DNA of 63,617 nucleotides, the filler included, from Folioceros fuciformis (lineage: Eukaryota): the NCBI GenBank assembly GCA_049999805.1. It is 19 parts of 19 records of this genome, joined end to end, with 100 filler letters (N's around TTAATTAATTAA, not from the genome) between each part and the next. Parts side by side here need not be neighbours in the genome. Positions count along the whole stretch, not along the records: positions 40,513 to 45,856 come from JBNGIO010006551.1; 18 more parts are not named here. One strand, written 5' to 3'. How positions within the stretch are numbered: position 1 is the stretch's first letter; each line of letters opens with the position of its first letter. The translations under genes and the position numbers were made by a program. The notes beneath the pieces were generated by a model that was given only the letters and a program-made list of their open reading frames with translations, was not told the DNA's origin and did no database searches. Positions 5,862-46,565 of this stretch are shown piece by piece.

Positions 5862-5961
5862 NNNNNNNNNNNNNNNNNNNNNNNNNNNNNNNNNNNNNNN
5901 NNNNNTTAATTAATTAANNNNNNNNNNNNNNNNNNNNNNNNNNNNNNNNNNNNNNNNNNNN
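5862..5961. other. Artificial contig linker N44-TTAATTAATTAA-N44 (first of 18)
   Basis: Identical 100-nt linker with stops in all six frames. Others start at 7581, 9300, 10981, 14132, 19416, 22532, 25125, 27250, 29096, 30690, 31887, 38435, 40413, 45857, 51832, 56193, 62152. ORFs containing XXX..LIN are artefacts of it. Confidence 0.99.
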
Positions 5962-6796
5962 GAGCCAGTACTGGTGATGTCCAAGGCCAGCATTTGGATG
6001 TCCCTTTGGAGGGGTGCAGAGAAGGAGATTCGACATCCCCAGCCAATCTGATGAATGGGGAAGCTGCGGGTGCTCATGTGAGGATTCCTCGGCGTCGTGG
6101 TCGACCCAAGGCACTAGGGGCCCCGTCCGGAGCCAGTACGGGGAATGTCGAAGGCCAGAATTTGGATAGTCCCAAGGCAGTAGAGGAAGCGGCCGGAGCC
6201 ACTGGGGATGTCGAAGGCCAGCGTTTGGATGCCCCCTTGAAGGAGTGCACCAGAGGTTCTGAAGGGGCTGCCACAGCCATCCCGGGGAATGCAGACGCCG
6301 CAGCTGCTGCGACGACGATTCCCCGGCGCTGTGGTTCACCCGAAGGGTCCAGGAACAAATCCAAATCAATCGGGGAACTCGCCGGGGCACTGGTATGTCA
6401 AGGGCCAACATTTGTTTAGTCCGAAGGCTATATGTAGGGGAACCCGGCGGGGCCACTGGTGATGTCGAAGGGCAGCATTTGGAGATAGTTGGAAGGCTGG
6501 AGGGGAACTCGCCGCAGGCACTGGTGATGTCGAAGGGCAGCATTTGGATAGTTGGAAGGCTGGAGGGGGACTCGCCGCAGGCACTGGTAATGTCGAAGGG
6601 CAGCGTTTGGATAGGCCGAAGACACAAGTGGAACCCGTCGGAGGCACTGGTGATGTCGAAGAGGCCAGCGTTGGGATATCCGCTTGAAGAAAGTCTTCTC
6701 CCCTTCAGGAGTTTACCCTTGAACTGGGCTGATCTGGTTCTTGAAGCTCAGGGAGGTATGACCGCCAGAGTAGGGACGGGTATGTATTCATTGTAG
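5962..6796 (+). pseudogene. Repeat-rich AT-hook-like coding remnant (second copy 7681-8515)
   Basis: RIPRRRGRPK and RRCGSPEGSRNKSK motifs; recurring ACTGGTGATGTCGAAGG(G/C)CAGC unit (TGDVEGQ); in-frame stop at 6417-6419 and a later frameshift. Confidence 0.5.
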
Positions 6797-7229
6797 TCAT
6801 TAGCACATCATTGCTCGATCACGTTCTATCGTGATACCCCTGTCCCATCTGTCTCTGAACGTCCGCAACATCTGAGATGAAGGTTTCGGCATACATACTA
6901 ACCACAATGCTACCGGCAAATACATCTGTCTTTGCAAAACTCCAGCCAGCGACCGTGCAGCATGTACTTGCTTCCCATTCTGCAGCAACTCTCGTTCCCC
7001 GTCTTTTCCACGTCCAGAGACGGTCTGGTAGGCTCGCCTGCATGCGCCGGGTTTTTTACAAGCCTTGTCCACAATCGATGCATGCTCAGGGGAAATAATT
7101 TGTTCAGCCCCACATGAACTTCAGCCCTTCTCCGGAACCAGGACTCAGATGGAAACCACTCACAAACGAGTTTCGTTCATGCCGCTCCATTTCAAATCTT
7201 CCTGACAGCCACTCCACCGGGTATCACCG

Positions 7230-7580
7230 CAATTGCGGGACAGATATCGACACCCACGAGAGTGTGAAAGCAACAGTTCACCTATGCTTCGTCCGTTTTC
7301 ACAAAGCTTTCGGCACAGTACGTGGGCACAAACTGTGGGAGGTCCTGGAGGAAATTGGGGCATAAGGCATGTAATACGGGCAGCCCAACCGCCATACCAA
7401 TACCATGCACTGCGCGCGGAAGTAGGAGGATAGAACAGGGCCAATATAAGGCACTGGTGGGGTCAGAAAACGGTGCCCGTTGAGCTTTCTCTGTTCTGCC
7501 TCTATGTACAACGATCACACCGGCATCTGGAACAGATGCAGGGCACGCACACTGCTGATTGAGGGGATCACAACATATCA
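7230..7580 (+). mobile_element. Degenerate non-LTR retrotransposon RT fragment (second copy 8949-9299)
   Basis: HLCFVRFHKAFGTV..HKLWEVL resembles FVDFxKAFDxV; GVRKRCPLS/LFCLYV resembles GVRQGCPLSPxLF. Confidence 0.75.
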
Positions 7581-9399
7581 NNNNNNNNNNNNNNNNNNNN
7601 NNNNNNNNNNNNNNNNNNNNNNNNTTAATTAATTAANNNNNNNNNNNNNNNNNNNNNNNNNNNNNNNNNNNNNNNNNNNNGAGCCAGTACTGGTGATGTC
7701 CAAGGCCAGCATTTGGATGTCCCTTTGGAGGGGTGCAGAGAAGGAGATTCGACATCCCCAGCCAATCTGATGAATGGGGAAGCTGCGGGTGCTCATGTGA
7801 GGATTCCTCGGCGTCGTGGTCGACCCAAGGCACTAGGGGCCCCGTCCGGAGCCAGTACGGGGAATGTCGAAGGCCAGAATTTGGATAGTCCCAAGGCAGT
7901 AGAGGAAGCGGCCGGAGCCACTGGGGATGTCGAAGGCCAGCGTTTGGATGCCCCCTTGAAGGTGTGCACCAGAGGTTCTGAAGGGGCTGCCACAGCCATC
8001 CCGGGGAATGCAGACGCCGCAGCTGCTGCGACGACGATTCCCCGGCGCTGTGGTTCACCCGAAGGGTCCAGGAACAAACCCAAATCAATCGGGGAACTCA
8101 CCGGGGCACTGGTATGTCAAGGGCCAACATTTGTTTAGTCCGAAGGCTATATGTAGGGGAACCCGGCGGGGCCACTGGTGATGTCGAAGGGCAGCATTTG
8201 GAGATAGTTGGAAGGCTGGAGGGGAACTCGCCGCAGGCACTGGTGATGTCGAAGGGCAGCATTTGGATAGTTGGAAGGCTGGAGGGGGACTCGCCGCAGG
8301 CACGGGTAATGTCGAAGGGCAGCGTTTGGATAGGCCGAAGACACAAGTGGAACCCGTCGGAGGCACTGGTGATGTCGAAGAGGCCAGCGTTGGGATATCC
8401 GCTTGAAGAAAGTCTTCTCCCCTTCAGGAGTTTACCCTTGAACTGGGCTGATCTGGTTCTTGAAGCTCAGGGAGGTATGACCGCCAGAGTAGGGACGGCT
8501 ATGTATTCATTGTAGTCATTAGCACATCATTGCTCGATCACGTTCTATCGTGATACCCCTGTCCCATCTGTGTCTGAACGTCCGCAACATCTGAGATGAA
8601 GGGTTCGGCATACATACTAACCACAATGCTACCGGCAAATACATCTGTCTTTGCAAAACTCCAGCCAGCGACTGTGCAGCATGTACTTGCTTCCCATTCT
8701 GCAGCAACTCTCGTTCCCCGTCTTTTCCACGTCCAGAGACGGTCTGGTAGGCTCGCCTGCATGCGCCGGGTTTTTTCCAAGCCTTGTCCACAATCGATGC
8801 ATGCTCAGGGGAAATAATTCGTTCAGCCCCACATGAACTTCCGCCCTTCTCCGGAACCAGGACTCAGATGGAAACCACTCACAAACGAGTTTCGTTCATG
8901 CCGCTCCATTTCAAATCTTCCTGACAGCCACTCCACCGGGTATCACCGCAATTGCGGGACAGATATCGACACCCACGAGAGTGTGAAAGCAACAGTTCAC
9001 CTATGCTTCGTCCGGTTTCACAAAGCTTTCGGCACAGTGCCTGGGCACAAACTGTGGGAGGTCCTGGAGGAAATTGGGGCATAAGGCATGTAATACGGGC
9101 AGCCCAACCGCCATACCAATACCATGCACTGCGCGCGGAAGTAGGAGGAGAGAACAGGGCCAATATAAGGCACTGGTGGGGTCAGAAAACGGTGCCCGTT
9201 GAGCTTTCTCTGTTCTGCCTCTATGTACAACGATCACACCGGCATCTGGAATAGATGCAGGGCACGCACACTGCTGATTGAGGGGATCACAACATATCAN
9301 NNNNNNNNNNNNNNNNNNNNNNNNNNNNNNNNNNNNNNNNNNNTTAATTAATTAANNNNNNNNNNNNNNNNNNNNNNNNNNNNNNNNNNNNNNNNNNNN

Positions 9400-19415: not shown

Positions 19416-19515
19416 NNNNNNNNNNNNNNNNNNNNNNNNNNNNNNNNNNNNNNNNNNNNTTAATTAATTAANNNNNNNNNNNNNNNNNNNNNNNNNNNNN
19501 NNNNNNNNNNNNNNN

Positions 19516-20649
19516 CCCATGATTTGCATACCCAGCAATCAGGGACGTCCATGTCACCACATCCTTCGTGGCCAAGCTGTCAAAAACCCTGCATGCATCT
19601 TCAAGTTCGCCACATTTTGCATACATGTCCACCAGGCAGTTGCCAACAAACAAGTTCTGAGAAACACCACTGTGCAACACGTGATAGTGCACTTCTCTGC
19701 CAGATTCCAAATCCGCAGCCAAGGCACAAGCTTGCAGGGCTGCTACATACACATGAGCATCCGCCTTCACACCCGAGCGTCGCATCTGATGGTACAGTTG
19801 TATAGCGTCCCTAGGTTTCCCATGTTTAGCATGCGCAGATATTATGGAACACCACAAGAAGGCATTTGGTTTCTCCACTCTGGTGAACACATCCATCGCC
19901 TCCTCCAGTCTCCCTCCACACGCATACATGCGCACGATGTTGTTCCCCAAGTACGCACTTGACTCGTAGCCGAGTTTGACGGTGAGATGATGAACTCGAC
20001 GGCCCGCCACCAAATCTTTCTTACATGCACACAACTTCAGCACAGTATACAAGAGAGACTCCGAAACAAGACCATTTGCGTGAGCCAGACATTCCAGGGC
20101 TCCAACGGCCTCTGTAAGCTTCCCCTGCTGACATAACATGCTCACGGTTACAGCTGTTACTACGCCCATCTCGGATCCTGCACGCCTGCTACATTCCGGT
20201 GAGCTGAACTTCAAACGCGAGGCACCATATCTCATCTGCATATCCGAAGAAACGAGCTGATTATCCACCCAAGCCGGCTTAAACATGTTGTCTAACCAGA
20301 GGACCTCGCGGGCCCCCTTACGCGTGAAGTCAGGCGAACGAGAGCTCTTCTTACCTCGCCTGTTATCCCACCACATGGCAGGGTCCAGCAAGAATTGTCG
20401 CCACAAGACTTCCTTCTCCTGCTCCTGCCGCTGCTTCGGGCCCCGGACCTGGCGACCACAGTCGCTGGAAAATGCTTCCCCAGCCATCCAATTGCTCTGA
20501 AGTGCTGCGTTCCTGACACAGCCGCACCTGCACACCTGGTTGTTTGTCAGCCACTGAGTCCCTGAGTCGAGCTGAGCTCCTCGCAGAATCCCTCCACAAC
20601 CACCACTCCGTAGCGGACACAACGGCTCGGATTGCCAAACAGTGGCCAT
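19516..20649 (-). CDS. PLS-class PPR protein, N-terminal half (putative transit peptide, PDF-like motif, first PLS triplets)
   Basis: Open frame from ATG 20649 (true start uncertain). WWDNR..PDF..LWL..PAWV motif, then P-L-S repeats to the contig edge. Confidence 0.93.
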
Positions 20650-21002
20650 CTTCGACACGCCGCTCTCGGAAGATAGAGATCATAGAGCATGCCAGAAATC
20701 ACCCTTAGCAAATGCAGTGCACAACGTGTATCGATGGTCAAGTCACCAAAACGAGATCACTCGGTCCGACGATCACAACAGAGAGCATCGCGGTGCTTGG
20801 CATCGTTGTACTGAGAGCGTGAAGCATGAAGTGCGAGTGTGCACAGTTCGCTGTCTCGAGGATGGACTGGACGTCGATGGTACTCGAATTACTCCAGGGT
20901 AGTTCAACAGACGTCTTGTTGGAAGAAGACCTATTTTGTCAGATGATCAGCGGTGTTGCGTCGAGCATCCTCTGAGAACTGGCTGGCAGTCCATTTTCGC
21001 TC

Positions 21003-22531
21003 TCACGGTCGACCCTTACAACTACAACAACCAGCCGCGAATCGGTGGACACGATATCCATCCCTTACGACGATGTCTCTCTTTTCAACCCTTGACATTA
21101 TTTCGGTGGAGCTGTGGCAGTCGCTGCACATCCGTAAATTCTTGGTAACCACCAAAGGCGTGCCACTCGGAGTGTTCAAGAGACCAAAAGCCAAAGCCAG
21201 CTTCTCGGCATGCCCACAAAGTGCATCTTCCTTTTCCTTCTCAGGCACTCGCTTTAGCACCAACTTTGTGTGTGGTACGTGGCCCCCTTCCCGCTTCAGA
21301 CGTGCATTCATGCTATCAACCTCAGGCGCAATGTCCGATCTATTTTCTCCCACCAGAAATGTATGCAACTCATTATTCACCTCGATGCCCGCCACTGCAG
21401 GTTTTTTGTTAGCTCCAGCTAACATTCTCTGTGTTTCGACCCTCTCTGCATCAGTCCACATGCCAGCGTCTGCATAGGCGTGGGCCATCAGCACATAGGC
21501 GGATGCACCATCAGGGTCCAATTTAACCAGAGTTTCATAACACTGGGCCGCCCTCACTATGTCTCCATGATTTTTGCAGGCATTCAGCAATGACGTCAAA
21601 CCCACAACATTGTTGCGGCTCTCGCACGATAATAGCATGTTCTCCGCCTCATCTAAATGGCCTGCACGGCCAAGCAGATCAACCATGCTATTGTAATGGT
21701 CAATAGTGGGTTGAATGCCATGCTGTTCAACCATGGCATCAAAGTGCTTGCGTCCCTCATTTACCAGGCCCGCATGACTGCATGCTGCTAAAAGGCAAGT
21801 GAATGTGATATCATTAGGCTGAAAACCTCCGACCAACATCTCCTGGAAACAAGCCAGCGCGCTGTCACCTTCGTCAGCGGCACCATATCCAGCTATCAGG
21901 GCATTCCACGTCACCACATCCTTTGTGGTCAAGCTCTCAAAAACACAGCGTGCATCTTCCAGTTTGCCGCATTTCGCATACATGTCCACCAGGCAGTTGC
22001 CGATAATTATGTTACGCAGATGTCCTCTTTTTACAATCTGCGAGTGCAGCTGCCTGCCCTTTTGTAAGGCACCGGCACTTGCACAAGCCTTTAGTAGGCA
22101 AGCAAAAGTAACATCGTTTCCCACAATCTGGCCCTCCTGCTCCATTTGTTCATACAGAGCAAGCGCCTCTCGGCCCGAACCTTGCTGTGCATACCCCGCA
22201 ATGAGGGAATTCCATGTCACCACATCCTTTGTCGTCAAGAGATCAAAGACCCGGCGTGCGTCTTCCAATTCACCACACTTTGCATACATGTCCACAAGGC
22301 AATTGCCTATGAATATGTTATCTACCTGTCCCCTTTCCACAATTTGTGAGTGTAGCTGCCTTCCCTTCGTCAAGGCGCCCGTGCTTGCACAGGCGTTCAG
22401 AAGGCAAGCAAACGTGACATGGTTACCCACAACAAACCCCTCCTGCTCCATTTCTTCATACAGGACGAGCGCCTCTTGGCCAAACCCATGATTTGCATAC
22501 CCAGCAATCAGGGACGTCCATGTCACCACAT
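21003..22531 (-). CDS. PLS-E1-E2-DYW:KP (GRP-type) PPR protein, C-terminal half; candidate U-to-C editing factor
   Basis: KKPAVAGIEV in place of the PG box, HAEKLA..LRMCSDCH deaminase motif, terminus HRFAAGCCSCKGRP instead of DYW. Confidence 0.95.
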
Positions 22532-22631
22532 NNNNNNNNNNNNNNNNNNNNNNNNNNNNNNNNNNNNNNNNNNNNTTAATTAATTAANNNNNNNNNNNNN
22601 NNNNNNNNNNNNNNNNNNNNNNNNNNNNNNN

Positions 22632-25124
22632 TGCTGTAAGACAGGAATTTTACACGTTGAAGATGAGAGAGGGGGAGAAGATGGCTGCTCACATCACCAA
22701 GTTTCGTCAACTCCGATCTCAACTCTTGAGCATGGGTACGAAAATGGATGAGTTGGATGCAGCCGCTCACCTCCTCACAACGTTGCCACCGTCGTACCAA
22801 GGCTTCATCACTACGCAGAATATTCCCTACCTGACTGCCTCAGCTGGCCGGACCTCCACCTATACAGTCGACACCCTCATCGGAGCACTGTTTCAGGAGG
22901 AACAAGCCAGGAGTCACTCATCTGGGGGCTCACGCTCCAAGGGAGACAAAATTCTGTCGGCAAGGCATACACCTAATAGAGGCAAGGGTAAGTTTCAGGG
23001 TACCCAGAAGTCTGATTCCAGTTCTGGTAACCCACCTAAGCGGACAGGGACTTGTAACTGGTGCGGGATTGCTGGGCACTGGGCCCGTGAGTGCAAGAAA
23101 AAGAGGGCTGGTGAGCCGCAGCGAACTCCTAAGAATTCGGCTAGTGTCGTTAAGGAGAAATCCAGCGACACTAAAAATGTGGTCAAGATACTTACAGTTT
23201 GCTTGACAAGTTCTTGTCTGGACATGGAAAGCTGGTACCTTGATTCTGGTGCCACGGCTCATATCTGTCGGAACAAGACTCATTTCATCTCACTGACCTT
23301 ATGTTGTGAGAACGACAAGGTGTTTCTAGGAGATGAACAACTTGACAGCAGCCTGCAAGTTAAGGGACAAGGCAAAGTTACTTTCAGACTGAAGGACGGT
23401 TCAGATCTTACTCTTGAACGCGTTTTGTACGTACCTGACATGGCTAAAAATCTGTTGTCCATGAGCCAGCTTCTCAAGCTACGGACGATTGAAATGAGAG
23501 CCACCGGTGATACGTGCACCTTCTACAGGAAGGCAGCGCCCGACATTTCTATCTTCCAGGGTTTCCTTGAAGATGATCTGTATTGCCTTGACCTCTTACC
23601 CGTTAAGACTGCCACAGTCCACAGTACTGGATTAGCTAATATGGACACCAAACAGTTGGCTATGTTATGGCATGCGAGACTGGGACATCCCAACAAACAG
23701 AAATTGTTGGACATGTCTGTTAAACAGTGTTTTAGGGAACCACTTCCCCGCTGTTTTAAGGACTTACCATCCTGCGAGGCATGCATAATAGCCAAACAAA
23801 AGGAGCACCCTTTTCCTTCCGCGCCTGCTTACAGAGCCACCTCTGTTCTAGGTCTGGTCCATGCGGACATCTCCGGACGGATACAAGTGCCCTCAATCGG
23901 TGGTTCCAATTACTATCTCACCTTGACGGACGACTACAGCCGATATACCTGGACGTTTCCCATGCAGAGAAAGAGTGACGTTCTTGAAATCTTCAAGGAA
24001 TGGCTCCCTGCAGTGCAACGTCAGACAGGTTTGTTATTGAAGTACCTGCGTACTGATAACGGGGGTGAATTCGTCAATGATGCTTTTGATGCATACCTTG
24101 CTGCGGAGGGGATCCAGCGACAGTTGACTCTTCCTTATACACCCCAGCAGAACGGGGTCTCGGAGAGGAAAAACCAGTCTTTGCTCTCTATGACGCGGAG
24201 CATGTTACTCTGGTCGGGTCTACCTCAAGTGTACTGGGCAGAGGCCATCTCTGCTGCGACGTATGTTCTGAACAGAATTCTTACGAGCTCTGTCCCGAAC
24301 CAGACTCCTTATGAGGCCCTCCATAAGAAGAAACCCAGCCTGCTGCACTTACGAGTTTTTGGCTCTCGTGCGTATGCTTTCATTCCTGCAAAGAAACGCC
24401 AGAAGTTAGACCCACGAGCTCAAGCCCTAGTTTTTGTGGGGTATAGTGAGCAGGCCAAGGCATATCGGCTGTATGACCCAACTACAAGGAAGATGTCCCT
24501 TGCACGCAGTGTCACCTTCATCGAACCTCACTCTCCATTGCTTGCTCAAGCTCCACAGACAGAGGGAGTTACGGCTGTCCCTGAGGAGACAGAGGGAGCT
24601 ACTACGTACCCTGTGCCTGAAGACCAGGTTACCCATCACATGTATCCTCAAGACACCGAACCGGCTGTGAGACTTTTGGATGCCGTTGTGGAGACTGACG
24701 CACTGCCTGCTGACCCTCCTGCAACGGAACCACTCGCTGCATTAGAAATTCAGGCGGCCCCGGATCCTGCAGCCCTAAATGCCCCTTCTTCCCCTGCTCA
24801 GGCTGACGAGGACTTCCCAGTAGTAGCCGATGAGCACGACTCAGACTTCATCGCGGATGAAGACATACCTGAGGACGTCCAACTACCAATAGTCCCTCCC
24901 GTTGAGATTACCCGTGATCCTGAAGTAGTTGCTCCTCGCCGCTCAGGACGCCACCGACCACCACCTGATCAATGGGCCGAACCACGCTATCAGTCTATTG
25001 ACTTTCGTCACCGGGCAGCCCCAGCTACTACTCACACTGCTCCATCAGCCATACCAGATGAGCCACGCACCTTGGTTGAGGCTTACAACGGACCTGATAG
25101 CAAGCAATGGTATGCGGCTGTTGA
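22632..25124 (+). mobile_element. Ty1/copia gag-pol fragment (gag, Zn knuckle, protease, integrase)
   Basis: Uninterrupted frame: CNWCGIAGHWAREC, WYLDSGATAH, WHARLGH..CEAC, DDYSRY/TDNGGE/ERKN. Clearly related to 33149-37639. Confidence 0.97.
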
Positions 25125-25377
25125 NNNNNNNNNNNNNNNNNNNNNNNNNNNNNNNNNNNNNNNNNNNNTTAATTAATTAANNNNNNNNNNNNNNNNNNNN
25201 NNNNNNNNNNNNNNNNNNNNNNNNTGGGAGACGCACCAAATTGATCAAACACGAACAAGTTTGGCGTCCAGTCCACTGTAAAGTGTATTTCTCAATATTG
25301 ATAGAACATATTTACATTGGAAGACGCCTGGTAGTCGGTAACCACTGGGTTATATACTATCTAGCGCATGTTATGGG

Positions 25378-32691: not shown

Positions 32692-33148
32692 CCCGACTTC
32701 CGCTGGTGGAGAGAGCACGAGACACGAATCGACAGCAAGGACAGTGGCGACCCACAGTGGAGACATCAACCGGCATGATGAGCTTGCCGCCCCTTGCTAA
32801 GCTTGTGTCCTCCTGCTTTGGATTGGCTCAACTAACCCCGTCGTTTCAGACGAAAGGGACATGTTAGTTGAAAAACCCTAAAAACTTTTTTTTCCGAAAC
32901 GTTGCATGAGTTGCTAGCATTACTGACCTGTACCAGGAAGGTCGATGAGGGAGGAGGCCTGCTAGAAGTCAGACATCGTTGTCTGCCCCCACCAGGCTTA
33001 CCCCCCCCAGCGAACCTCCTGCACATACATTGTCAGTCCTAAGCATGCTCATGAACATACAAAGTGATTCGGTAGACTGACATGCATTCGAACTTAGCTG
33101 TTTTTTACACCCTGCCCATAGAAAAGGGTGTAACCTCAGCTAGGTTGC

Positions 33149-36100
33149 ATGTCCAGACTTGTTGTCCCTGATAGTGAGGATGAGGAAGACTTTGACTCTT
33201 CAGATGAGGAGGAAGGTGAGATAGACTTAGCGTCATATTTTGCTTCATCTTTTTGGCAGTATAACCCTCCTATCATACAAGTACAACACCCTCTACCAGT
33301 CACACAGGTTGTTAGAGCAATGGCAACCCCATCTTTCACATCAGACCTTAAGGAAAAAGACAGGTTTAATGGAACCAAGTACCCAGTCTGGAGGGTGCGT
33401 ATGAAGGCCATTCTGATTGCACGGGGTTGCTGGAGTGTTGTGGATGGTTCCTTCCCAGAGCCAGATCCCATCACTGGTTCTCAAGCTGACAAGGAGAAGT
33501 GGGCCTCCATTAATGAAGTGGCTGTTGCAGTTCTCATCAATGGATTGGCCACAGACCTTGTACCTGATGTGGAATACCTGACAAAAGGCATTCAAATATG
33601 GAATCAGCTCGAGAAGACGTATCAGGTCATCAACATCATGACTAAATGCGCAGTCTGGCAGGAATACTATGCTTTGCGAATGAAGGAAGGAGACAAAGTT
33701 GGAGTTTTTACCAGCAAATTTCGTCACCTCCGGTCGCAACTTGCTTCCTTCAACATAAAGATCGAGGAGGAACATGCTGTTGTCCAATTGCTAAGCAGTC
33801 TCCCAGCCACCCTCCAGCAGTTTGTCAGTTCTTACAATGGACCACTGAATGCATCTCAAGCTGCGGTAACTGCTGGGACTGCCAGTACATTGACAGTGGA
33901 TGACATAGTTGCTGCCCTGCATCAAGAGGAGCAGAGTAGACTGTTTTCCGTTGGTGGATCTAAGCCCAAAGCAGAAAAAGTCCTAGCTGCAAGGTTTAAA
34001 CCAATTAGGCAAAAAGGCAAGGCTCACCCTCAGGGGTACAGTGAGCCTGGGCAATCTTCTATCACGAAGAAAACAGGAAATTGTAACTGGTGTGGTATCC
34101 CAGGGCACTGGGCTCGCGACTGCCGGAAGAAAAAGGCAGGAGAACCCCAGAAAAAGGCTTCCACTAATGTTGTTGTTAAGGAGAAAGGCTCGAGTGACCA
34201 CTCGGCACCTACAGACAACAAAGGAACGGTTAGAATATATACTATTTGCCTTTCCAATTCCAAGCACGATAGGGACAGTTGGTACTTGGACTCAGGTGCA
34301 ACTGCTCACATTTGCAAAGACAAGGATTTGTTCTCATACCTGGACACTTCTCATACGGTTGAGAAGGTGTTGCTTGGGGATGAGAAAAATGAAACTGGCC
34401 TCCGCATTGAAGGACAGGGTAAATGTACCTTCATTCTGCATGACAGAACTGACCTGGTTTTGGAAGATGTTCTGTATGTACCCAGGATGGCCAAGAACCT
34501 TGTGTCTTTGAGTCGATTGCTTGGTACGAGGGCATACAGCATGTTTGCAGACCAAAGCTCCTGTTCCTTTTACACTACCACTGTTCCATACAGATTAGTG
34601 TTTAAAGGAATTCCAGACAGTGACCTGTATTGTCTTGACATCCATTGTAAGCCTGAAACTGTTACTTTGTCAACAACCCCAGGTCAGATGGATACAAAAG
34701 CCCTAGCTTCCCTTGGGCACGCCAGATTAGGTCATGCCAATAGGGCTAAGCTAATCGATATGTCGGTTAAGGACTGTTACAGAGAGCCCTTACCACAGTG
34801 CTTCAAGGACTTGCCTATTTGTGAGGCTTGCATCCTGGCGAAGCAGAAGGAGCAGTCATTCCCCACCACACCTGCACACAGAGCCAGCCACGTCTTAGAG
34901 TTAATACATGCGGATATCTCAGGAAAAATACATGAGCCGTCACTTGGGGACTCTAGATATTACCTCTCTTTTACAGATGATTTCAGTCGTTATTCCTGGA
35001 CCTTCCCCATGCAACTTAAGAGTGACACCTTTCGACTGTTTACTGAATGGCTTCCTGTAGTGCAACGTCAAACAGGACAGTTGGTCAAATGGCTGCGGAC
35101 TGACAACGGCACGGAATTTGTGAATGCCCAGTTTGATTCCTACCTACAAGGGCATGGAATTCAGCGTCAGTTGACAGTCCCCTACACCCCTCAACATAAT
35201 GGAGTTGCTGAGCGGAAGAATCAAACCTTGCTCGGCATGACACGCAGTATGCTCCTCTGGGCTGGTCTTCCTCAGGGATACTGGGCAGAGGCTGTTGTAA
35301 CTGCTACTTACATCCTTAATAGGGTGTACACAAGTGCTGTGAAGGGTCAAACACCTTATGAGGTCTTCTGGAAGCGTAAGCCTAGCATTCTTCACCTTCG
35401 TGTTTTTGGTTCTCGAGCCTTTGCCTATATACCTGCCGAAAAGAGGAGGAAATTAGACAATAGGGCTCAGGGTCTTATTTTCGTCGGATATAGTGAAACT
35501 GCTAAGGCCTACAAGCTCTATGACAAGCACAGGCACTCCATAATGTTGGCACGAAGTGTTACCTTTTTGGAACCTCATGCACCTGTCGGCGAGCCAGCCT
35601 CAAAGGTAGTTACTGCAGAAGCAGAGGGAGTTGACGACGATGCAGACACAGATGCTCATGCTCCTGGAGACTATCCACAGGATGACACTGAAGCGCTCGA
35701 TGATGACCTCCTTCGACCTGTCCCTGATGTTCAGGCACCACCAGATGAGTTGATTCAGGCTGGTGATCAGCAAGATGCGCCTCCTGTTGAGGGATCCATG
35801 GATATTCTAATTCTACACCAGGGTAATGAGAACGTTGACCAAGGCCCTTACCTGGATGAGCACGAGGTCGAAGACATATCCGAACCTGCAGACCCATCAC
35901 TTGTTGACGAGACAGATGCAATAGGTCCACCTGAGCCAGAGCTTCGACGTTCTGCAAGACATAGGCTAGAGAGGTCAGCATGGAAGGAGCTACCATATCA
36001 ATCCATTGATTTCAGGCACTCCTCCTCAGCAGTCACAGTCCCTTTACCTGATGAGCCCAAGACCTTATCCCAAGCTTTCAATGGTCCAGAATCTGCACAA

Positions 36101-37639
36101 TGGCGTGCAGCAGTAGAGGACGAGTACCAGTCCTTGGTTAAGAACAAGACCTGGACGCTTGTTGATTTACCATCTGGGAGGAAGGCAATCTCCTGCAAAT
36201 GGGTCTTCAAGTTAAAGTTGAATGCAAAAGGCGAAGTAGCAAGATTCAAGGCACGACTAGTGGCAAGAGGCTTCACTCAAGTCGAGGGTTTGGACTACCA
36301 GGAGACTTTCTCACCTGTCGTTAGAGCACAGTCCATCAGAGTAATCTTGGCCCTGGCAACTCAGTACGATCTCGACCTGGAACAGATGGATGTGTGTACA
36401 GCATTCCTCTATGGGGCTTTGGATGAGGACCTTTATATGGAACAGCCAGAGGCCTATGTAGACAAGCAGCACCCACACAAGGTGTTAAAATTACTCAAGT
36501 GTATATATGGTCTCAAACAGAGTGGTAGGGTCTGGTATGTAACCATACACATTTTTCTGTTGAGCATTGACTTCCTACAAAGCACAGCGGATACAAACGT
36601 ATACAAACTTACCAGAGGGTCTCAGTACGTGATCCTTGCCTTGTACGTAGACGACGTCATACTGGCTACTAACAGCCAGCCTCTGCTTTCTGAGGTCAAG
36701 GCCCTATTAAGTAGTAAGTTTGAAATGAAGGACATTGGCGAACTCAGGTTCTGTTTGGGAATACAGATTATCCGCAACAGACCAGACAAGTTGATGGTCA
36801 TTCATCAGCAAAAATACATAAATGAGATCCTAAGAAGGTTCAAGCTGGAAGACTGTCGGCCAGCTACTACACCTGCAGCCGTTGGGGTAAAGCTGACTAG
36901 CCTCATGTGCCCACAGAGTGCCCAAGACAAAAAGGATATGGAAAATGTGCCATACAGGCATGCAGTAGGCAGTCTTATTTTTGTCGCTAACTGGACTAGA
37001 CCAGATGTGCAATATGCTGTTAGCACAGTGTCACAGTTCTTGGAAAATCCAGGGAGGGGGCACTGGGTGGCCGTAAAACGGATATTCAGGTACCTTAAGG
37101 GTACCATTCATCATGGATTAGTATACAAAAGTAATGGGGAGGATAGACTTACTTTACGGGGATTCACAGACGCTGACTGGGCCTCAGACTTTGATTCCCG
37201 CAGGAGCCTATCCACATACTGCTTCTTGTTAGCATCTGCAGCTGTAAGCTGGAGCAGCAAGAAACAAAGTTCAATCTCTTTATCCTCAACCGAAGCGGAA
37301 TACAAATCTCTTACAGAAGCCGCAAAGGAGGCTGAGTGGGAGAGGAGATTCTTACAAGATCTTGGTCAGGAGCAAGTTGAACCGACCCTAATTTCTTGTG
37401 ACAACATGTCAGCCTTGGCGCTGGTAGCTAATCCTCGTTTCCATGCAAGAACCAAACATATCGAAATACAGCATCACTATATCCGTGATGCTGTGGATAG
37501 AAGAGTAACGAAGGTGGGCTTTATTAAAACGGAGGACAACTCTGCTGATATTCTAACAAAAGCTTTGCCAAAGCACAAGCACTATCAGCATGTGGAGGGC
37601 CTAGGTGTTTGTGACTTCTCAGTACACACTGAACAGTGA
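33149..37639 (+). CDS. Copia gag-pol polyprotein, 1496 aa (gag probably from ATG 33320)
   Basis: Order gag, CCHC, PR (DSGA), IN, RT (FKARLVARG, QMDV..AFL, YVDD), RNaseH (DADWA, EAEY, ADILTK). Confidence 0.99.
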   Translation: MSRLVVPDSEDEEDFDSSDEEEGEIDLASYFASSFWQYNPPIIQVQHPLPVTQVVRAMATPSFTSDLKEKDRFNGTKYPVWRVRMKAILIARGCWSVVDGSFPEPDPITGSQADKEKWASINEVAVAVLINGLATDLVPDVEYLTKGIQIWNQLEKTYQVINIMTKCAVWQEYYALRMKEGDKVGVFTSKFRHLRSQLASFNIKIEEEHAVVQLLSSLPATLQQFVSSYNGPLNASQAAVTAGTASTLTVDDIVAALHQEEQSRLFSVGGSKPKAEKVLAARFKPIRQKGKAHPQGYSEPGQSSITKKTGNCNWCGIPGHWARDCRKKKAGEPQKKASTNVVVKEKGSSDHSAPTDNKGTVRIYTICLSNSKHDRDSWYLDSGATAHICKDKDLFSYLDTSHTVEKVLLGDEKNETGLRIEGQGKCTFILHDRTDLVLEDVLYVPRMAKNLVSLSRLLGTRAYSMFADQSSCSFYTTTVPYRLVFKGIPDSDLYCLDIHCKPETVTLSTTPGQMDTKALASLGHARLGHANRAKLIDMSVKDCYREPLPQCFKDLPICEACILAKQKEQSFPTTPAHRASHVLELIHADISGKIHEPSLGDSRYYLSFTDDFSRYSWTFPMQLKSDTFRLFTEWLPVVQRQTGQLVKWLRTDNGTEFVNAQFDSYLQGHGIQRQLTVPYTPQHNGVAERKNQTLLGMTRSMLLWAGLPQGYWAEAVVTATYILNRVYTSAVKGQTPYEVFWKRKPSILHLRVFGSRAFAYIPAEKRRKLDNRAQGLIFVGYSETAKAYKLYDKHRHSIMLARSVTFLEPHAPVGEPASKVVTAEAEGVDDDADTDAHAPGDYPQDDTEALDDDLLRPVPDVQAPPDELIQAGDQQDAPPVEGSMDILILHQGNENVDQGPYLDEHEVEDISEPADPSLVDETDAIGPPEPELRRSARHRLERSAWKELPYQSIDFRHSSSAVTVPLPDEPKTLSQAFNGPESAQWRAAVEDEYQSLVKNKTWTLVDLPSGRKAISCKWVFKLKLNAKGEVARFKARLVARGFTQVEGLDYQETFSPVVRAQSIRVILALATQYDLDLEQMDVCTAFLYGALDEDLYMEQPEAYVDKQHPHKVLKLLKCIYGLKQSGRVWYVTIHIFLLSIDFLQSTADTNVYKLTRGSQYVILALYVDDVILATNSQPLLSEVKALLSSKFEMKDIGELRFCLGIQIIRNRPDKLMVIHQQKYINEILRRFKLEDCRPATTPAAVGVKLTSLMCPQSAQDKKDMENVPYRHAVGSLIFVANWTRPDVQYAVSTVSQFLENPGRGHWVAVKRIFRYLKGTIHHGLVYKSNGEDRLTLRGFTDADWASDFDSRRSLSTYCFLLASAAVSWSSKKQSSISLSSTEAEYKSLTEAAKEAEWERRFLQDLGQEQVEPTLISCDNMSALALVANPRFHARTKHIEIQHHYIRDAVDRRVTKVGFIKTEDNSADILTKALPKHKHYQHVEGLGVCDFSVHTEQ

Positions 37640-40291: not shown

Positions 40292-40410
40292 TGGATGCAG
40301 CACCGGGACTTCCCGGGAGGTCACCCATCCCAGTACTATTCCGGCCCAAAGGCGCTTAACTTCAGAGTTCTGATGGGATCTGGTGTAGTAGCCTTGGTAT
40401 GACCGCATCA
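40292..40410 (-). rRNA. 5S rRNA, seed-free-plant type
   Basis: 119 nt TGATGCGGTCATACCAAGGCTACTACACCAGATCCCATCAGAACTCTGAAGTTAAGCG..GTGCTGCATCCA followed by CTTTT (Pol III terminator). First base is T rather than the usual G. Confidence 0.96.
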
Positions 40411-41205
40411 CGNNNNNNNNNNNNNNNNNNNNNNNNNNNNNNNNNNNNNNNNNNNNTTAATTAATTAANNNNNNNNNNNNNNNNNNNNNNNNNNNNNNNN
40501 NNNNNNNNNNNNCCTCCACTTCCTCAAACCTACATTGGCGTGAACTCGTCCAATCAAACGCCTGTGATGCCTGCAAGCTGCAAGGATCGTTGCCAGCATT
40601 CAAAATTCCGCTTGCACACCTCCAAGAAAACCGGGAAGACCAAGGATCCTTGGCGACCTCTCGTGCTGTGGCTCTTCCAGCATGCAGGACGGTGACGGAT
40701 CAATCTCGATTCATCAACAGCGTGTGCAGCTCTTAATCGCGAAGCGCTCACAAGGCCTTGCGTGTCAGAGGGAGCAAGAATACGTGTATCTTGATAGATG
40801 CAGCTGCAGAGCTTTCTTGCTGCAAGTTGTGTAACGCATTCGTCAGGAACGCCTGCCCTGCTCAGTGATCGCTTTGCTGTTCCGAGCTCTGAGACAGGAC
40901 GAGCAGAAGCGGCTGAGTGAACAGGCCGGACGGGAGTCCGGGTCATCATGACGCAGAGGGGCTGACCGCAGTCACTTAGGCTTCAACCTGCCAAGAAAGG
41001 ACCAGGTCGTTACGTCCACCGTTTACTCAGCCTCCATTGGAATTGGCTTACAATACATACATCGCCGTAACTGAAGATCAAAGCTTTGCTTTGAGGTCGT
41101 CAAATTCAACAGTGGACAGGACGTGGCTATACTAGATTGGAAAATGGGCAATTTCCTCCTTCTCCGCGTTGAAGAAGTCGGGACGCTTGAGCTCAGACCT
41201 TGGCT

Positions 41206-42420
41206 ATGGCTGACTGGTCGGCAAGGTGGATGTTGATGTGCCTGGTGCTCACCAATTGCGGTTTCCTGTTTGCTGGTGGTCAATCCCCCAGCACACCTGC
41301 CATTGACGCATTCTTGCAGGAGAAGGAGTCTCAAGTGCAGCTGATAGCGCAACAGGCTACGATAAACCACGAAAACACCTGCGGTAAGAAGCATCCGGCA
41401 TGCGTGCCGACCAGAATGTGCCCAAGCTCACATCCTGACTGGGGAGTTAACACCTGCGGGATGTGGAAACTGCAGAGCTGATGGCAACATGTGATGCCCC
41501 GGAAAATTGCACTAGAGGAGCGTGCCAGTATGTGTCAGGGGACCTACTGTACCTGCAGTGTGTGACAATTCAGAACCACACAGGTTGCCGAAGTGAGAAT
41601 GACACCGTGTGCAACTCTGGGCTGGTGACTTACGACATGAGTTATGTGAGGTGAGATATAAGGTTTCGTGTACCGGGTTTCTCTGCTTCACCAGACTATT
41701 CGCCCTTGCTGATTCCGTAAATACAGGGCGCACATTGCTAGAATAGGTGGAGTTTCTACCGAAGTGAAGAACGCCATCTGCTCTCAGCGTGCGCTGGATA
41801 GCACTGTTTCAAGAACCTGAGGCAGAACGGAACAGATCCGTTTTTCAATCATGCCCTGGGCACCGTAGAAGGTCCCCATCGCTTCTATCCTGGCAGGGTG
41901 AGATAGCATGTCCTAGGCAACACCTTGTAAGATACGCTTTCGCCCTTGACCTCTTGCAAAAGCTCATCGCAGGATGGTTTCCTTCCCAGGCACTGCTAGA
42001 TTGCGACAGTTACGATGTAAGACAACGGCCCTGGTAAGAAACGAGTCTGGATGTGTTGTGCTGAGACTTCGGTTGCACTTGAATTATGTGCCATCGGAAA
42101 CATGGGTTTACGTTTACGTTGGACAGGTACAATGCAGGAATTGGTGTGAAGAAGAGTCTTGTCATCCTAATCGACTCCAGTTACTCCATGGGTAACTGGC
42201 TTGCTGCTCTTCATGTGGAGGGATCGCACCTGGACACAACACAAATGCTATTATCCATGCACTCGGGGGTGCACTTGTACCGGCGGGGATCCTAATCGCG
42301 GTGTGCATTTTCCGACGGGAAATTGAAGAGTGCTGCTCGAAAACAATCAACGACGAAGGGCGGGGAACCAGTGTATGGGCTCTGTCAGAAAACAATAGTA
42401 ACGAAAAACTATGATATGGC
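41206..42420 (+). pseudogene. Internally deleted copy of the vWA-Cache gene
   Basis: Colinear with 43033-44004, then jumps (TAAC filler at 42193) to the equivalent of 45249; further small indels. Confidence 0.9.
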
Positions 42421-43032
42421 CTGCGACAATTTGCCATCGTTCAAAATGAACCCATCAATAGCAATGGCAATGACAAAGGTCAGTCACACTGGATATCTTA
42501 CAAGTTCACACCCTAAGAGATTTCTTTCCAGTGTAGATACCAATTATCACGAGTGATCCCAATCATCACAGGTCCTTCAAAATCATGTCCCGAGTTAGCC
42601 TGGACTACAGGTTCCACCACTGCAAATCGTAAAAAACACTCTCCAGGGGGAATCGCTGATGTACTCCTTGAGCTCATCGCTCTGCTGGTCGTCAACCTGC
42701 CAAGGAAGGACTTGGTCGTGACATCCACCTGTTCACTCAGCCTCCGCTCAGCTTCAAATGCACTTCACCGCACGCCCTTCAAATCGCCGCAAGTGATGAT
42801 CAAAGCTTGCGTTAAGGTCCTCAAAGTCAACAGTGCACAGGAAGTGGATATACTAGATTGCAAAGCGAGTGGACTGGGGGTGGAAATACTAGACTAGGAC
42901 GTGAGTGGCTGGAAGTGGATATACCAGACTAGAACGTGAGTGGCTGGAAGTGGATATACTAGATTGGAAAATGAGAAATTTCGACCTTCTCCTCTTCGAA
43001 GAAATCGGGACGCTTGAGCTCAGACCTTGGCT

Positions 43033-45475
43033 ATGGCTGACTGGTCGGCAAGGTGGATGTTGGTGTGCCTGGTGCTCACCAATTACGGTTTCCTGTTTGC
43101 TGGTGGCCAATCCCCAAGCACACCTGCCATTGACGCATTCTTGCAGGAGAAGGAGTCTCAAGTGCAGCTGATAGCGCAACAGGCTACGATAAACCACGAA
43201 AACACCTGCGGTAAGAAGCATCCGGCATGCGTGCTGACCAGAATGTGCACAAGCTCACATCCTGACTGGGGAGTTAACACCTGCGGGATGTGGAAACTGC
43301 AGAGCTGGTGGCAACATGTGATGCCCCGGAAAATTGCACTAGAGGAGCTTGCCAGTATGTCTCAGGGGACCTACAGCACATGCAGTGTGTGGCAATTCCG
43401 AACCGCACAGGTTGCCAAAGTCAGAATGGCACCGTGTGCAACTCTGGGTTGGTGACTTACGACAGGAGTTATGTGAGGTGAGATATGAGATTTCGTGTAT
43501 CGGGTTTCTCTGCTTCACCAGACCATTCGTCCATGCTGATCCTGCAAATACAGGGCGCCCAATGGTACAAGAGGTGGAGTTTCTAACGAAGTGAAGAACG
43601 CCATCTGCTCTCAGCGTGCACTGGATTACACTGTTTTCAAGATCCTGAGGCAGAACGGAACAGAACCGTTTTTCAACTATGCCCTGGGCACCGTAGAAGG
43701 TCCCCATCGCTTCTATCCTGGAAGGGTGAGATAGCATGTCCTAGGCAACACCTTGTAAGACACGCTTTCGTCCTTGCTCATCGTAGGATGGTTTCCTTCC
43801 CAGGCACTGCTAGATTGCGACATGTACGATGTAAGACAACGGCCCTGGTAAGAAACGAGTCTGGATGTGTTGCTCAGACTTCGGTTGCACTTGAATTATG
43901 TGCCATCGGAAACATGGGTTTACGTTTACGTGGGACAGGTACAATGCAGCAATTGGTGTGAAGAAGAGTCTTGTCATCCTAATCGACTCCAGTTACTCCA
44001 TGGGAAGAGTGGGAGCAATCACCATCGGATCTTCAGTCTTGCACATGTGCCTAACTACGACTAACAATCTGCTAAACACTCTGTCAGCAACAGATGAAGC
44101 CTCGGTGATTACCTTCGACGGGACTAACACAGCCATGCAGTTGGGTGCAAAGGCAAGCTCTCACATTGCACGGTTACTTCAGAGCTGGTTAGGGTCATAG
44201 CTTTGCTCAAATCTCTAACCACCTCTTGGCCCTCCCCCAGTTCACTGTTCCACCCACAGGTCCGGATCCAAGCAACCCGCAACTGCTCAATCTGCTCCAG
44301 GCCGTGGAAAGTCTAAACGTTTCCAGCAACCAAGGAGCAGCCAATTATACTGCTGGGTTGTCTTCAGCTCTCTCTGTGTTTGAAGCAGCTCCAGACGATG
44401 CAATGAAGGTAACAAATCCCCAACCACACAGTTTTCGTAAGCTGGCAAAATGGTCCTTCTACCGAAACCGTCTTTGCCGGTAGAATTCTCATTCCGAGAT
44501 CACGTACAACAGGTGGTGGTCGTACTGACGGATGGAAATTTCGGGGACCATGTCCAAGTGGAGGAGCTGTATCCCGTCCTTCAAGAGATTGCGGAGAAAC
44601 AGGTGAAAGTCCTCATGTACAGTGATGGAGTGATCAGCTCTTCCGCCATGCAAAATCTCACAGACTTTGCCTGCAAGGCAAATGGTTCTTATGAACTAGT
44701 CGATCTGCAAAATCCTCTGTTTGGGATCCGATCTCTATTTTCCTTCTTTGCTCGAGCCCACATTGCAGCTTTCCCTAAGTCCTACTGGCTAGGGAGATAC
44801 ACCAACTACGACGGACTGGGGGACGTCATAGAAGTCACCTACCCAGGTACTCTTATTTGTCACGCAGGCTCTTTTCTCTTGATTCATTGTGTCGAAGGTC
44901 TCATCCAGCTTCACTACAGTTATGACAAGAGATGGCATGGACTTGATTGGGGTAGCTGGCATCTTGATCCAAAAGTCGTCCCTCAATCTTCTGTTCCAAG
45001 GCTCGATTGATACTGCTCTACAGAAGAGGCAGGGGGGGGTTGTAGTTAAGAATCCTGCTGCCACAGGCGCTAATCTATCATGCACAATACCTGTAAGTTG
45101 AATCCAGAACAATTCAACGTGTACCTTTCTGCTTACCTTGTCCTGAACAGCTCCGTTTTGCAGGCAACCGGCCCAACGACTACCTGTGGCTATGGCACGT
45201 CCACTGGAATTTGTGCTTCGACAGTCTCAAAGCATAGCTATGCCGATATGGCTTGCTGCTCTTCATGTGGAGGGATCTCACCTGGACACAACAGAAATGC
45301 TATTATCTTTGCAGCCGTGGCTGTAGGGGGTGCAGTTGTACTGGGGGGGATCGTAGTCCTGGTGTTCATTTTCCGACGGCAAATTGGAGAGTGTTGCTCG
45401 CGAACAATCAAGGATAAAGGGCGGGGAACCAGCGTATGGGATCTGCCCGAAACGAATGGTAACGAAAAACTATAA
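43033..45475 (+). CDS. Alpha2delta/CACHD1-like vWA and Cache type I membrane protein, multi-exon
   Basis: Signal peptide; Cys-rich region; RFYPG..YDVRQRPW|YNAA..KSLVILIDSSYSMG (MIDAS DxSxS), VLTDG, YWLGRY..GLGDVIEVTYP, LIGVAGI; TM AIIFAAVAVGGAVVLGGIVVLVFIF-RR. Exons assembled by hand; one donor near 44153 appears to be GC. Confidence 0.8.
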
Positions 45476-46565
45476 TAGGGCCTGCGACAACTTGCCATGG
45501 TTCAAAATGAACCCAGCACTAGCAATGGCAATGACAAAGGTCAGTCACACTGGATATCTTACAAGTCCACACCCTAAGAGATGTCTTTCTAGTGTAGATA
45601 CCAATTGTCACGGATGCACCCAGTCATTACAGGTGCTTCAAAATCATGTCAAGAGTTAGCCTCGACAACAAGTTTTACCACTGCAAATCGTGAAAAAGAC
45701 TCTCCAGGGGAAATCGTTGATGTACTAAGAGAGAAAACATTGTCGATTGCTTATTAATCACCGTTGCCTACAGTTCGTAATTCTCCGCCTTCGTTTCTAC
45801 AATGAACTCCCTCCACTTCCTCAAACCTACATTGGCGTGAACTCGTCCAATCAAACNNNNNNNNNNNNNNNNNNNNNNNNNNNNNNNNNNNNNNNNNNNN
45901 TTAATTAATTAANNNNNNNNNNNNNNNNNNNNNNNNNNNNNNNNNNNNNNNNNNNNAAAAACTATTTTACCTCATATGTAGATATTAATTTCATTGTAAT
46001 GGTTCTTGTTTCTAGCTCCATACTACTATTATATGGCTGGTTGTAAATGGGGGTTTGGGGTTTAGGGTTTGATACTATATACTTCGAGAAAAGAATCTCG
46101 CTAATTCATACAATTATGCTATATATGTGTATGCATACACAACCTTCAAGGGCATCTACAACAAGAAAAGAACCTACCTCTTCTATGCAGTGTATGCTAT
46201 TTATGTGTATGCAAACACAACCTTTAGGTTTAGGGGCATCTATTATACGAAAAGAACCTACTTGTTTCATACAATTTTGCTATATACATGAATCATCACA
46301 CACCACTTGATTGAGCTCTAAACCTAGTAGCCTGCGCAACTACTTCAAGAGCAAATTTAGCAATTTCATACAAGTGCCCCATATATTTGCGTGGTAAGCC
46401 TAATTCTTGATTAAGTTGAAGGAGCTTTATGTGCAACTACTTCAGTCCTCTAAGATCCATATTTCCAACTCACTTATCAAATCTTGTAGTGGTGAAGCAG
46501 GAGAAATTGTAGGAGCAAGGTCTACAGTGAATAAGGAGGAGACTAGTATTAGTGTAAGAGCTACA

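What the first reader, a model, noticed from the sequence alone, without database searches (positions are those of the whole stretch)
43033..45475. Alpha2delta/CACHD1-like vWA-Cache surface protein in a land plant, with an altered ligand motif
Seen: signal peptide, Cys-rich segment, YDVRQRPWY, a vWA insert with DSSYS and TDG, the second Cache half (WLGRY..GLGDVIEVTYP..LIGVAGI), one TM helix and a short tail. Established: a vWA domain inserted into a dCache_1 domain is the architecture of animal Cav alpha2delta subunits and CACHD1, whose amino-acid pocket is YxxxxRxW..Y..D; flowering plants lack Cav channels. Here Y, R, W and Y are kept, but the final Asp position reads L (GVAGIL), and the MIDAS Thr seems to be Ala. 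Inference: a short, channel-independent small-molecule sensor that may bind a carboxylate other than an alpha-amino acid, amplified in tandem like an immune or symbiosis receptor.
Basis: partly seen in the sequence, partly recalled or inferred. Interest (0 to 1): 0.72.

Follow-up and report, generated by a model that had tools for sequence, protein, structure and literature searches.

The report
Hornwort Cache-vWA receptor with altered pocket
This is a real, spliced gene for a cell-surface protein of an already described family of non-flowering plants related to animal calcium-channel alpha2delta subunits, in which the one residue needed to grip amino acids has been replaced, so it probably senses something else or nothing.

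Summary
Confirmed. A 9-exon, 589-aa gene at 43033-45475, with 7 of 8 introns joined in RNA-type contigs and the eighth seen indirectly. It encodes a Cache module split by a vWA domain, one TM helix and a 33-aa tail. The family is known: Gumerov 2022 lists single dCache_1+VWA proteins in charophytes, a hornwort, moss, liverwort, Selaginella, ferns and a cycad. A folded homologue matches alpha2delta-1 (Z 29.4). The motif Asp really is Leu444: 74 of 81 well-aligned relatives keep Asp, and its small clade shows Leu, Glu, Val and a transcribed Trp form. So it is not an amino-acid sensor of the dCache_1AA type. Two first-reader points fall. The MIDAS Thr loss is family-wide (Thr in 14 of 81 rows). 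And 'channel-independent' is unproven: the same, probably hornwort, assembly holds a four-repeat Cav-like gene on a plant contig. Best guess: a kinase-less receptor-like protein for an amine-free carboxylate (0.37). No ligand was tested.

The parts
43033..43210 (+). exon 1: putative signal peptide and Cache stalk helix (aa 1-59)
   Evidence: intron 1 joint; helix 44-67 in the homologue model
43303..43477 (+). exon 2: Cys-rich insertion (C65, C71, C76, C88, C97, C105), all aligned to Cys in the folded homologue
43554..43725 (+). exon 3: N-terminal half of the Cache distal module
43804..43847 (+). exon 4: YDVRQRPW, motif residues Y183 (43825), R188 (43840), W190
43939..44152 (+). exon 5: Y191 and start of vWA, MIDAS DxSxS (D206 43985, S208, S210); followed by a GC-AG intron
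   Evidence: (VWA_2 E 4e-4, below the curated cut-off); GC donor also in the C1440 paralogue
44241..44408 (+). exon 6: vWA middle, A295 (44340) at the MIDAS Thr position
44513..44846 (+). exon 7: vWA end (D324 of TDG) and return to Cache, motif Y413 (44798)
44920..45092 (+). exon 8: last Cache strand, L444 (44964-44966) at the motif Asp position
45164..45475 (+). exon 9: Cys-containing stalk, TM helix (about 45299-45373), 33-aa tail, stop
41111..42665 (+). broken tandem copy, 93% (5' part) and 87% (3' part) identical: 1-nt loss in exon 3 (stop at codon 149) and a deletion of about 1.24 kb joining the start of exon 5 to exon 9
40513..45856 (.). the 5344-bp contig that holds both copies (G000:C6551), bounded by N-TTAATTAATTAA-N linkers; the rest of the window is unrelated contigs

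Best explanation
A kinase-less, single-pass surface receptor-like protein of the streptophyte single-Cache+vWA family, most likely from a hornwort. Shown: the gene is intact and spliced, belongs to this family, and has Leu instead of Asp at the amino-group-binding position. Inferred from homologue structure and published mutants: the membrane-distal Cache pocket keeps the carboxyl-binding half (Y183, R188, W190, plus Y413) but cannot bind an alpha-amino group. Inferred, untested: it binds an amine-free carboxylate with a hydrophobic part (organic, hydroxy, fatty or aromatic acid). With a 33-aa tail and no catalytic domain it must signal through a partner, such as a kinase-bearing family member or another membrane protein. 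It sits in a young, fast-turning subclade in which this one pocket position varies (Leu, Trp, Glu, Val).
For: Motif spacing fits the published definition: n1 221 (215-245) and n2 30 (27-34), only D missing. Homologues listed in Gumerov's Dataset S3 as Y....R.W(Y/F) Y D (P0097, P0100, P0102, P0113, P0121) carry D in the column of L444. So does alpha2delta-1 (GVMGVD). PctA D173A and D173N abolish binding and alpha2delta-1 D491A abolishes the gabapentin effect (PMC8915833). The mirror case exists in bacteria: amine sensors keep D173 and lose R126 (10.1101/2023.04.06.535858, passages), and new specificities arise by distal-pocket substitutions (PMC11844446, passages). R188 is invariant in 66 of 66 rows with a residue. 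Window (L), C1440 paralogue (E) and P0004 (V) form one clade, SH-aLRT 98 in a quick tree of 47 rows. A second transcribed form reads Trp444, at depth 88.6 of 165.2, one contig. Purifying selection against the C1440 paralogue: dN/dS 0.41 overall, 0.30-0.33 in the two Cache halves. Kinase-bearing members exist in liverwort and mosses.
Against: No binding was tested and the window's own protein was not folded, only a homologue 150/476 identical. R and W are near-invariant across the family, so their retention may be structural. Four different residues at one position, including bulky Trp, fit loss of constraint as well as retuning. Asp loss recurs in other plant paralogues (7 of 81: N, N, V, V, H, E, T). 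No kinase-bearing member was found among 8 loci in this assembly, though 3 are cut by contig ends. Of the 13 codons changed by the 14 exonic RNA variants I evaluated, 11 change the residue (only 40 of 81 variants were shown).
Confidence: 0.37

Rival explanations
1. The pocket no longer binds a small molecule. The protein acts by protein or cell-wall contacts through its vWA and Cache surfaces, as a scaffold, co-receptor or decoy for family kinases.
For: The position tolerates L, W, E and V. CACHD1 is solved bound to FZD5 and LRP6 (entry titles 8s7c and 9eq6). DxSxS and D324 are kept here and in the C1440 paralogue, while the second MIDAS position is Ser in only 15 of 69 rows. Motif-less eukaryotic paralogues are already recorded (legend of Fig. 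S16).
Against: Y183, R188, W190, Y191 and Y413 are all kept, and the Cache halves have the lowest dN/dS of the protein.
Confidence: 0.25
2. A decaying young duplicate on its way to a pseudogene.
For: 2 of the 4 subclade copies in the assembly are broken. dN/dS 0.41 is moderate. The window carries residues absent from both the paralogue and RNA forms (D355, S407, N415).
Against: Open frame over 9 exons, spliced transcripts, 15 of 15 compared ectodomain Cys aligned to Cys in the folded homologue, dN/dS below 1 in all six segments.
Confidence: 0.15
3. An alpha2delta-type auxiliary subunit of the four-repeat Cav-like channel encoded at G000:C6328, docking by its MIDAS on the channel's repeat-I loop.
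For: Fold and ancestry shared with alpha2delta-1. The assembly has a gene with four S4 segments, four pore loops (filter positions A, E, D, D) and an IQ motif in order over about 7 kb; its best PDB match is Cav1.1 (E 8.5e-27), and it is flanked by a PPR gene and a gene nearest to streptophyte clusters. An acidic pair (QVEDIG) lies in the repeat-I S1-S2 loop; that alpha2delta binds an Asp in this loop is recalled, not from a call.
Against: Half the size of alpha2delta, with no second dCache. No named plant member has a full MIDAS. The family is expanded and kinase-fused like a receptor family, and is present in the conifer Cryptomeria. No co-expression or interaction data. The repeat-I loop gave no PDB sequence match.
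Confidence: 0.12
4. It still binds amino acids or amines, with another residue or water replacing Asp.
For: Four of the five motif positions are intact; the nearest paralogue has Glu.
Against: Even D173N abolishes binding in PctA. Leu and Trp offer no polar group. The acidic residue two after the motif Tyr, Asp in 76 of 129 rows, is Asn here.
Confidence: 0.08
5. Artefact or non-plant contaminant.
For: The gene lies on a 5.3-kb contig with no other gene.
Against: The best matches of the model include liverwort and fern proteins. It groups with own-genome, hornwort and liverwort sequences (97). Paralogues lie on four other contigs with like intron positions. GC 0.50 and CpG ratio 0.66 match other contigs. 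Transcripts are spliced.
Confidence: 0.02

Closest known systems
Streptophyte single dCache_1AA proteins with VWA insertion (Gumerov et al. 2022, PMC8915833; e.g. Physcomitrium XP_024386779.1, Psilotum c29167_g1_i1, Nothoceros TRINITY_DN6104, Selaginella XP_024517781.1)
   Same: Same length (about 590 aa), Cys pattern, split Cache module, vWA insert, single TM and short tail; about 26-33% identity over most of the length to the best long hits; 427.7 bits to the family profile.
   Different: Motif Asp is Leu (Trp in a second transcript); DxSxS is better kept than in most plant members.
Streptophyte Cache-vWA Ser/Thr receptor kinases (e.g. Riccia KAL2612061.1, Physcomitrium XP_024368103.1 and XP_024373479.1)
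   Same: Same ectodomain and TM; the Riccia kinase is the best hit (33%, E 4.5e-83).
   Different: No kinase domain: the tail is 33 aa against about 360-390 aa. They keep Asp.
Cav alpha2delta-1 (CACNA2D1)
   Same: vWA inserted in the first Cache module; family profile E 1e-47 over residues 131-475; homologue model Z 29.4, 396 residues, rmsd 3.9.
   Different: About half the length, no second dCache_1. The homologue model shows no strands of a membrane-proximal Cache module between the last distal strand and the TM. Asp and MIDAS Thr are changed.
CACHD1
   Same: Single-pass vWA-Cache protein; profile E 1.7e-25; Z 24.3.
   Different: CACHD1 has two dCache_1 domains with the intact motif in the second; this protein has one split module.
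Bacterial dCache_1AA (PctA) and its derivatives dCache_1AM, PU, UR
   Same: YxxxxRxWY half-motif (PctA E 2.6e-7); pocket substitutions change the ligand class.
   Different: vWA insertion; the change here (R kept, D lost) is the mirror of the amine sensors. I found no characterised sensor with this pattern in the passages read.

Membership tests
Streptophyte single dCache_1+VWA family | Full-length homology with the split Cache and vWA in the same order | tested here: met
   427.7 bits, profile positions 9-559 of 579; shuffles at most 2.8; blastp E down to 4.5e-83
Streptophyte single dCache_1+VWA family | Cache+vWA fold like alpha2delta | tested here: met
   On a homologue only (P0100, pLDDT 82.8, pTM 0.80): Foldseek E 3.8e-21, Z 29.4. 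The window's own spliced protein was not folded.
Streptophyte single dCache_1+VWA family | One TM helix after the Cache module | tested here: met
   Hydropathy peak 2.82 in the window starting at aa 538; 87 aa from the motif column to the TM, as in relatives
Streptophyte single dCache_1+VWA family | N-terminal signal peptide | tested here: inconclusive
   No predictor available; hydropathy cut-off not reached; aligned with the hydrophobic N-termini of homologues
dCache_1AA (amino-acid sensor) | [YFWL]xxxx[RK]xW[WYF] | tested here: met
   YDVRQRPWY, aa 183-191
dCache_1AA (amino-acid sensor) | [YF] at n1 of 215-245 residues | tested here: met
   Y413, n1 = 221
dCache_1AA (amino-acid sensor) | Asp at n2 of 27-34 residues | tested here: not met
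   L444, n2 = 30; Asp in 74 of 81 well-aligned rows
dCache_1AA (amino-acid sensor) | Binds amino acids | not testable with these tools
   needs thermal shift and calorimetry
dCache_1 (double module) | Membrane-proximal Cache module after the distal one | tested here: inconclusive
   Homologue model shows helix 464-475, then coil with Cys and no strand of 3 or more residues before the TM, pLDDT 70-80; that part was not folded or searched alone
alpha2delta / CACHD1 orthologues | Two nested dCache_1 domains, about 1100-1270 aa | tested here: not met
   589 aa; the profile covers only alpha2delta-1 131-475
alpha2delta / CACHD1 orthologues | Binds and traffics a Cav alpha1 subunit | not testable with these tools
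   A candidate alpha1 gene exists in the assembly; the interaction was not tested
vWA with canonical MIDAS | DxSxS ... T ... D | tested here: not met
   D206, S208, S210 and D324 present; the Thr position is Ala295
Cache-vWA receptor kinases | Cytoplasmic Ser/Thr kinase domain | tested here: not met
   Stop 33 aa after the TM; no Pfam match for exon 9

The most novel reading that the evidence does not exclude
An Asp-less hornwort subclade of Cache-vWA proteins senses organic acids and couples, like alpha2delta, to a four-repeat Cav-like channel kept in a land plant. That would be a ligand-regulated plant calcium-channel complex, for instance in swimming sperm (sperm chemotaxis to malate in ferns is recalled, not from a call).
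Probability: 0.06. Interest if true: 0.85.

Novelty: new variant of a known kind. Interest (0 to 1): 0.4.

Why it matters
No plant member of this family has a tested ligand or function in the papers I could find. This assembly holds Asp-bearing (C1466, two on C4645) and Asp-less (Leu, Glu; Trp in RNA) paralogues side by side, a ready set for testing whether the eukaryotic Cache pocket changes ligand class as bacterial ones do. The Cav-like gene in the same plant assembly matters separately, since a review states that voltage-activated calcium channels are absent from land plants (PMC5767606, passage). It makes the question of whether plant alpha2delta relatives have a channel partner testable.

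Tried and rejected
Word-index homologue searches with exon 7 alone and a five-row exon-7 alignment found nothing; the full HMMER scan found 93 proteins. The window's own protein did not appear among the 20 hits, so it could not be folded whole; a homologue was folded instead. No complex prediction was sent: the vWA and the channel's repeat I are each split over several exons and no whole protein was available. The Pfam GPHH search of the own genome was blank and its control also blank: uninformative. The metagenome scan gave 4 loci of 146 candidates with only 15-residue matches: not used. Runs X2 and X3 laid no contigs: no evidence. P0090 was dropped from the alignments as a spurious repeat-rich hit. 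Of 138 aligned proteins, 98 have a residue in the Asp column (82 Asp); 17 rows without the G-[VI] context, mostly intron read-through fragments, were set aside to give 74 of 81. These rows include near-identical cluster members; counting only the 50%-cluster representatives gives 44 of 50. The tree is the quick version without bootstrap, and one 13-residue piece of the C1466 row was read in the wrong frame. A strict link between the family and flagellated sperm was rejected because Cryptomeria has a member. N415 was not treated as a special loss: that column is not Asp in 53 of 129 rows. Paper searches for a four-domain channel in bryophytes or Marchantia sperm found nothing relevant; I recall a report of a Marchantia sperm voltage-gated channel that these searches did not return, so the channel may be known. 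The library lacks most subscription papers. Figures of PMC8915833 (Fig. 6, S16) could not be seen and may show more on plant members. Earlier scan notes: none.

Full report
Setting. The window is a chain of short unrelated contigs separated by N-TTAATTAATTAA-N linkers. The gene lies on a 5344-bp contig, window 40513-45856, G000:C6551, in an assembly of 87.2 Mb and 7240 contigs. Other contigs in the window carry copia elements, PPR genes and an LRR ORF, and rRNA genes. One PPR protein ends in a KP...GRP DYW domain, a variant described for hornworts (PMC9478123, passages). One own-genome paralogue is sister to a Nothoceros protein at SH-aLRT 99. I therefore take the assembly to be a hornwort; this is inference.

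Gene. Nine exons give 589 aa without a stop. In run X1, 29 contigs were laid; joints match introns 1, 3, 4, 5 (GC-AG), 6, 7 and 8 at the modelled places, and intron 2 is seen through the upstream copy. The run is labelled RNA only as a guess, but the spliced joints show transcripts. The protein has a probable signal peptide (inferred only), a stalk helix, a Cys-rich insertion, half a Cache module ending in YDVRQRPWY, a vWA domain, the rest of the Cache module, a six-Cys stalk, one TM helix and a 33-aa tail.

Family. A full HMMER scan with an exon-7 profile gave 93 proteins. The 30 looked up include Riccia, Marchantia, Physcomitrium, Ceratodon, Nothoceros, Selaginella, Psilotum and Cryptomeria proteins plus unnamed records; one search added Sphagnum. 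Of the 35 long ones scanned, 4 had a kinase domain. The model scores 427.7 bits to a profile of 52 such proteins. That profile finds alpha2delta-1 at E 1e-47, CACHD1 at 1.7e-25 and PctA at 2.6e-7. The Psilotum homologue folds with pLDDT 82.8 and matches alpha2delta-1 first in three searches (Z 29.4, 396 residues, rmsd 3.9). Gumerov et al. 2022 already describe single dCache_1+VWA proteins across non-flowering streptophytes, some kinase-fused, and absent from angiosperms (PMC8915833: parts 1-4 of 5 read; Dataset S3 searched and its last part read; SI text searched). The architecture in a plant is thus known.

Pocket. By the published definition the protein meets Y183, R188, W190, Y191 and Y413 with correct spacings and fails only at Asp, where it has Leu444. 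Asp is kept in 74 of 81 well-aligned rows, 44 of 50 among cluster representatives; no other row has Leu. In the same assembly C1466 and both C4645 copies keep Asp, while the nearest intact paralogue on C1440 (67% identical) has Glu. That pair joins an unnamed protein with Val in a clade of support 98. An RNA contig reads Trp at this codon at about half the depth; it may be an allele or an unassembled copy, and the run differs from the assembly at other sites too. Published D173A, D173N and D491A mutants lose binding or drug response, so canonical amino-acid binding is unlikely. Scattered losses also occur in liverwort and moss paralogues (N, H, E, T), so the change is recurrent, not unique.

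MIDAS. DxSxS and D324 are present and the Thr position is Ala. The family column is mostly Ser (54 of 81; Thr 14, Ala 7). A complete MIDAS occurs in 7 of 64 long rows, none a named plant protein. This is a family trait.

Copies. Eight loci on five contigs were found: the window gene, a broken tandem copy upstream, an intact and a broken copy on C1440, one on C1466, two on C4645 and one on C5099, the last three cut by contig ends. None showed a kinase. dN/dS against C1440 is 0.41 overall and lowest in the Cache halves. The picture is birth and death in a young subclade under moderate constraint.

Channel. An Ion_trans search of the assembly gave 16 matches, five in a row on C6328. That region holds four S4 segments, four pore loops with A, E, D, D at the filter positions and an IQ motif, in order on one strand. 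Its best PDB match is Cav1.1. A PPR gene and a gene nearest to streptophyte clusters flank it, and its composition is like that of the other contigs. I did not build the spliced model or test expression.

Mechanism. Most likely (0.37) a receptor-like protein whose pocket holds an amine-free carboxylate through R188, W190 and Y183, the mirror of bacterial amine sensors, and which signals through a partner. Rivals: ligand-free scaffold or decoy (0.25), decaying duplicate (0.15), alpha2delta-type channel subunit (0.12), residual amino-acid binder (0.08), artefact (0.02). The gene, the family and the Asp loss are shown; ligand, partner and role are inferred.

Verdict. A real gene, a member of a published family, and not a member of dCache_1AA by its defining test. 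It is a new variant of a known kind, interest 0.4. I found no paper on a function or ligand of the plant members (open-access library only). Other papers seen as passages or term searches only: PMC11844446, 10.1101/2023.04.06.535858, PMC9478123, PMC5767606, PMC11479355, PMC8618852, PMC8075897.

Noticed in passing
G000:C6328, about 335400-342800 (+); L038:1400-8820: Four-repeat voltage-gated cation channel gene (four S4, pore positions A/E/D/D, IQ motif; best PDB match Cav1.1) on a plant contig between a PPR gene and a streptophyte-type gene. A review says such channels are absent from land plants; deserves its own study.
   Followed up: partly
window 21003-22583 (-): PPR protein with a DYW:KP domain ending in GRP, the hornwort-type candidate U-to-C editing factor; a second PPR ORF at 19468-20679 (-) on the same contig.
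   Followed up: partly
window 44153-44240; L008 introns 5 and 6: GC-AG intron 5 is conserved in the C1440 paralogue, which also has a GC donor at intron 6.
   Followed up: yes
window 44964-44993 and 45216-45225: Run X1 holds a second form with mostly residue-changing differences, including Trp at codon 444; a DNA search found no matching copy in the assembly.
   Followed up: partly
family-wide (homologue model, residues 476-543): The plant proteins seem to lack a membrane-proximal Cache module; a Cys-rich stalk of about 60 aa and a Cys-rich N-terminal insertion stand in its place.
   Followed up: partly
P0076, P0081, P0092: Unnamed relatives that join the Cache-vWA module to a C-type lectin domain.
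   Followed up: no
window 56313-62140 (-) and 40292-40410 (-): A full 18S-5.8S-LSU rRNA unit, and a 5S rRNA gene at the end of the preceding contig.
   Followed up: no
window 33134-37639 (+) and 22588-25176 (+): A complete copia gag-pol ORF (1501 aa) and a partial one.
   Followed up: no
window 5862-9299: Two neighbouring contigs of about 1.7 kb appear to be near-duplicates of each other (repeat families D1, D2), probably assembly redundancy.
   Followed up: no
window 46404-49359 (+): Two long low-complexity ORFs (359 and 635 aa) with a 520-bp duplication and 63-bp repeats, no Pfam match.
   Followed up: no
G000:C4162:438-1406 and C1708:6056-9009: Other Ion_trans genes: a long intron-free ORF on a 2.9-kb contig, and a multi-hit locus that may be a two-pore channel.
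   Followed up: no
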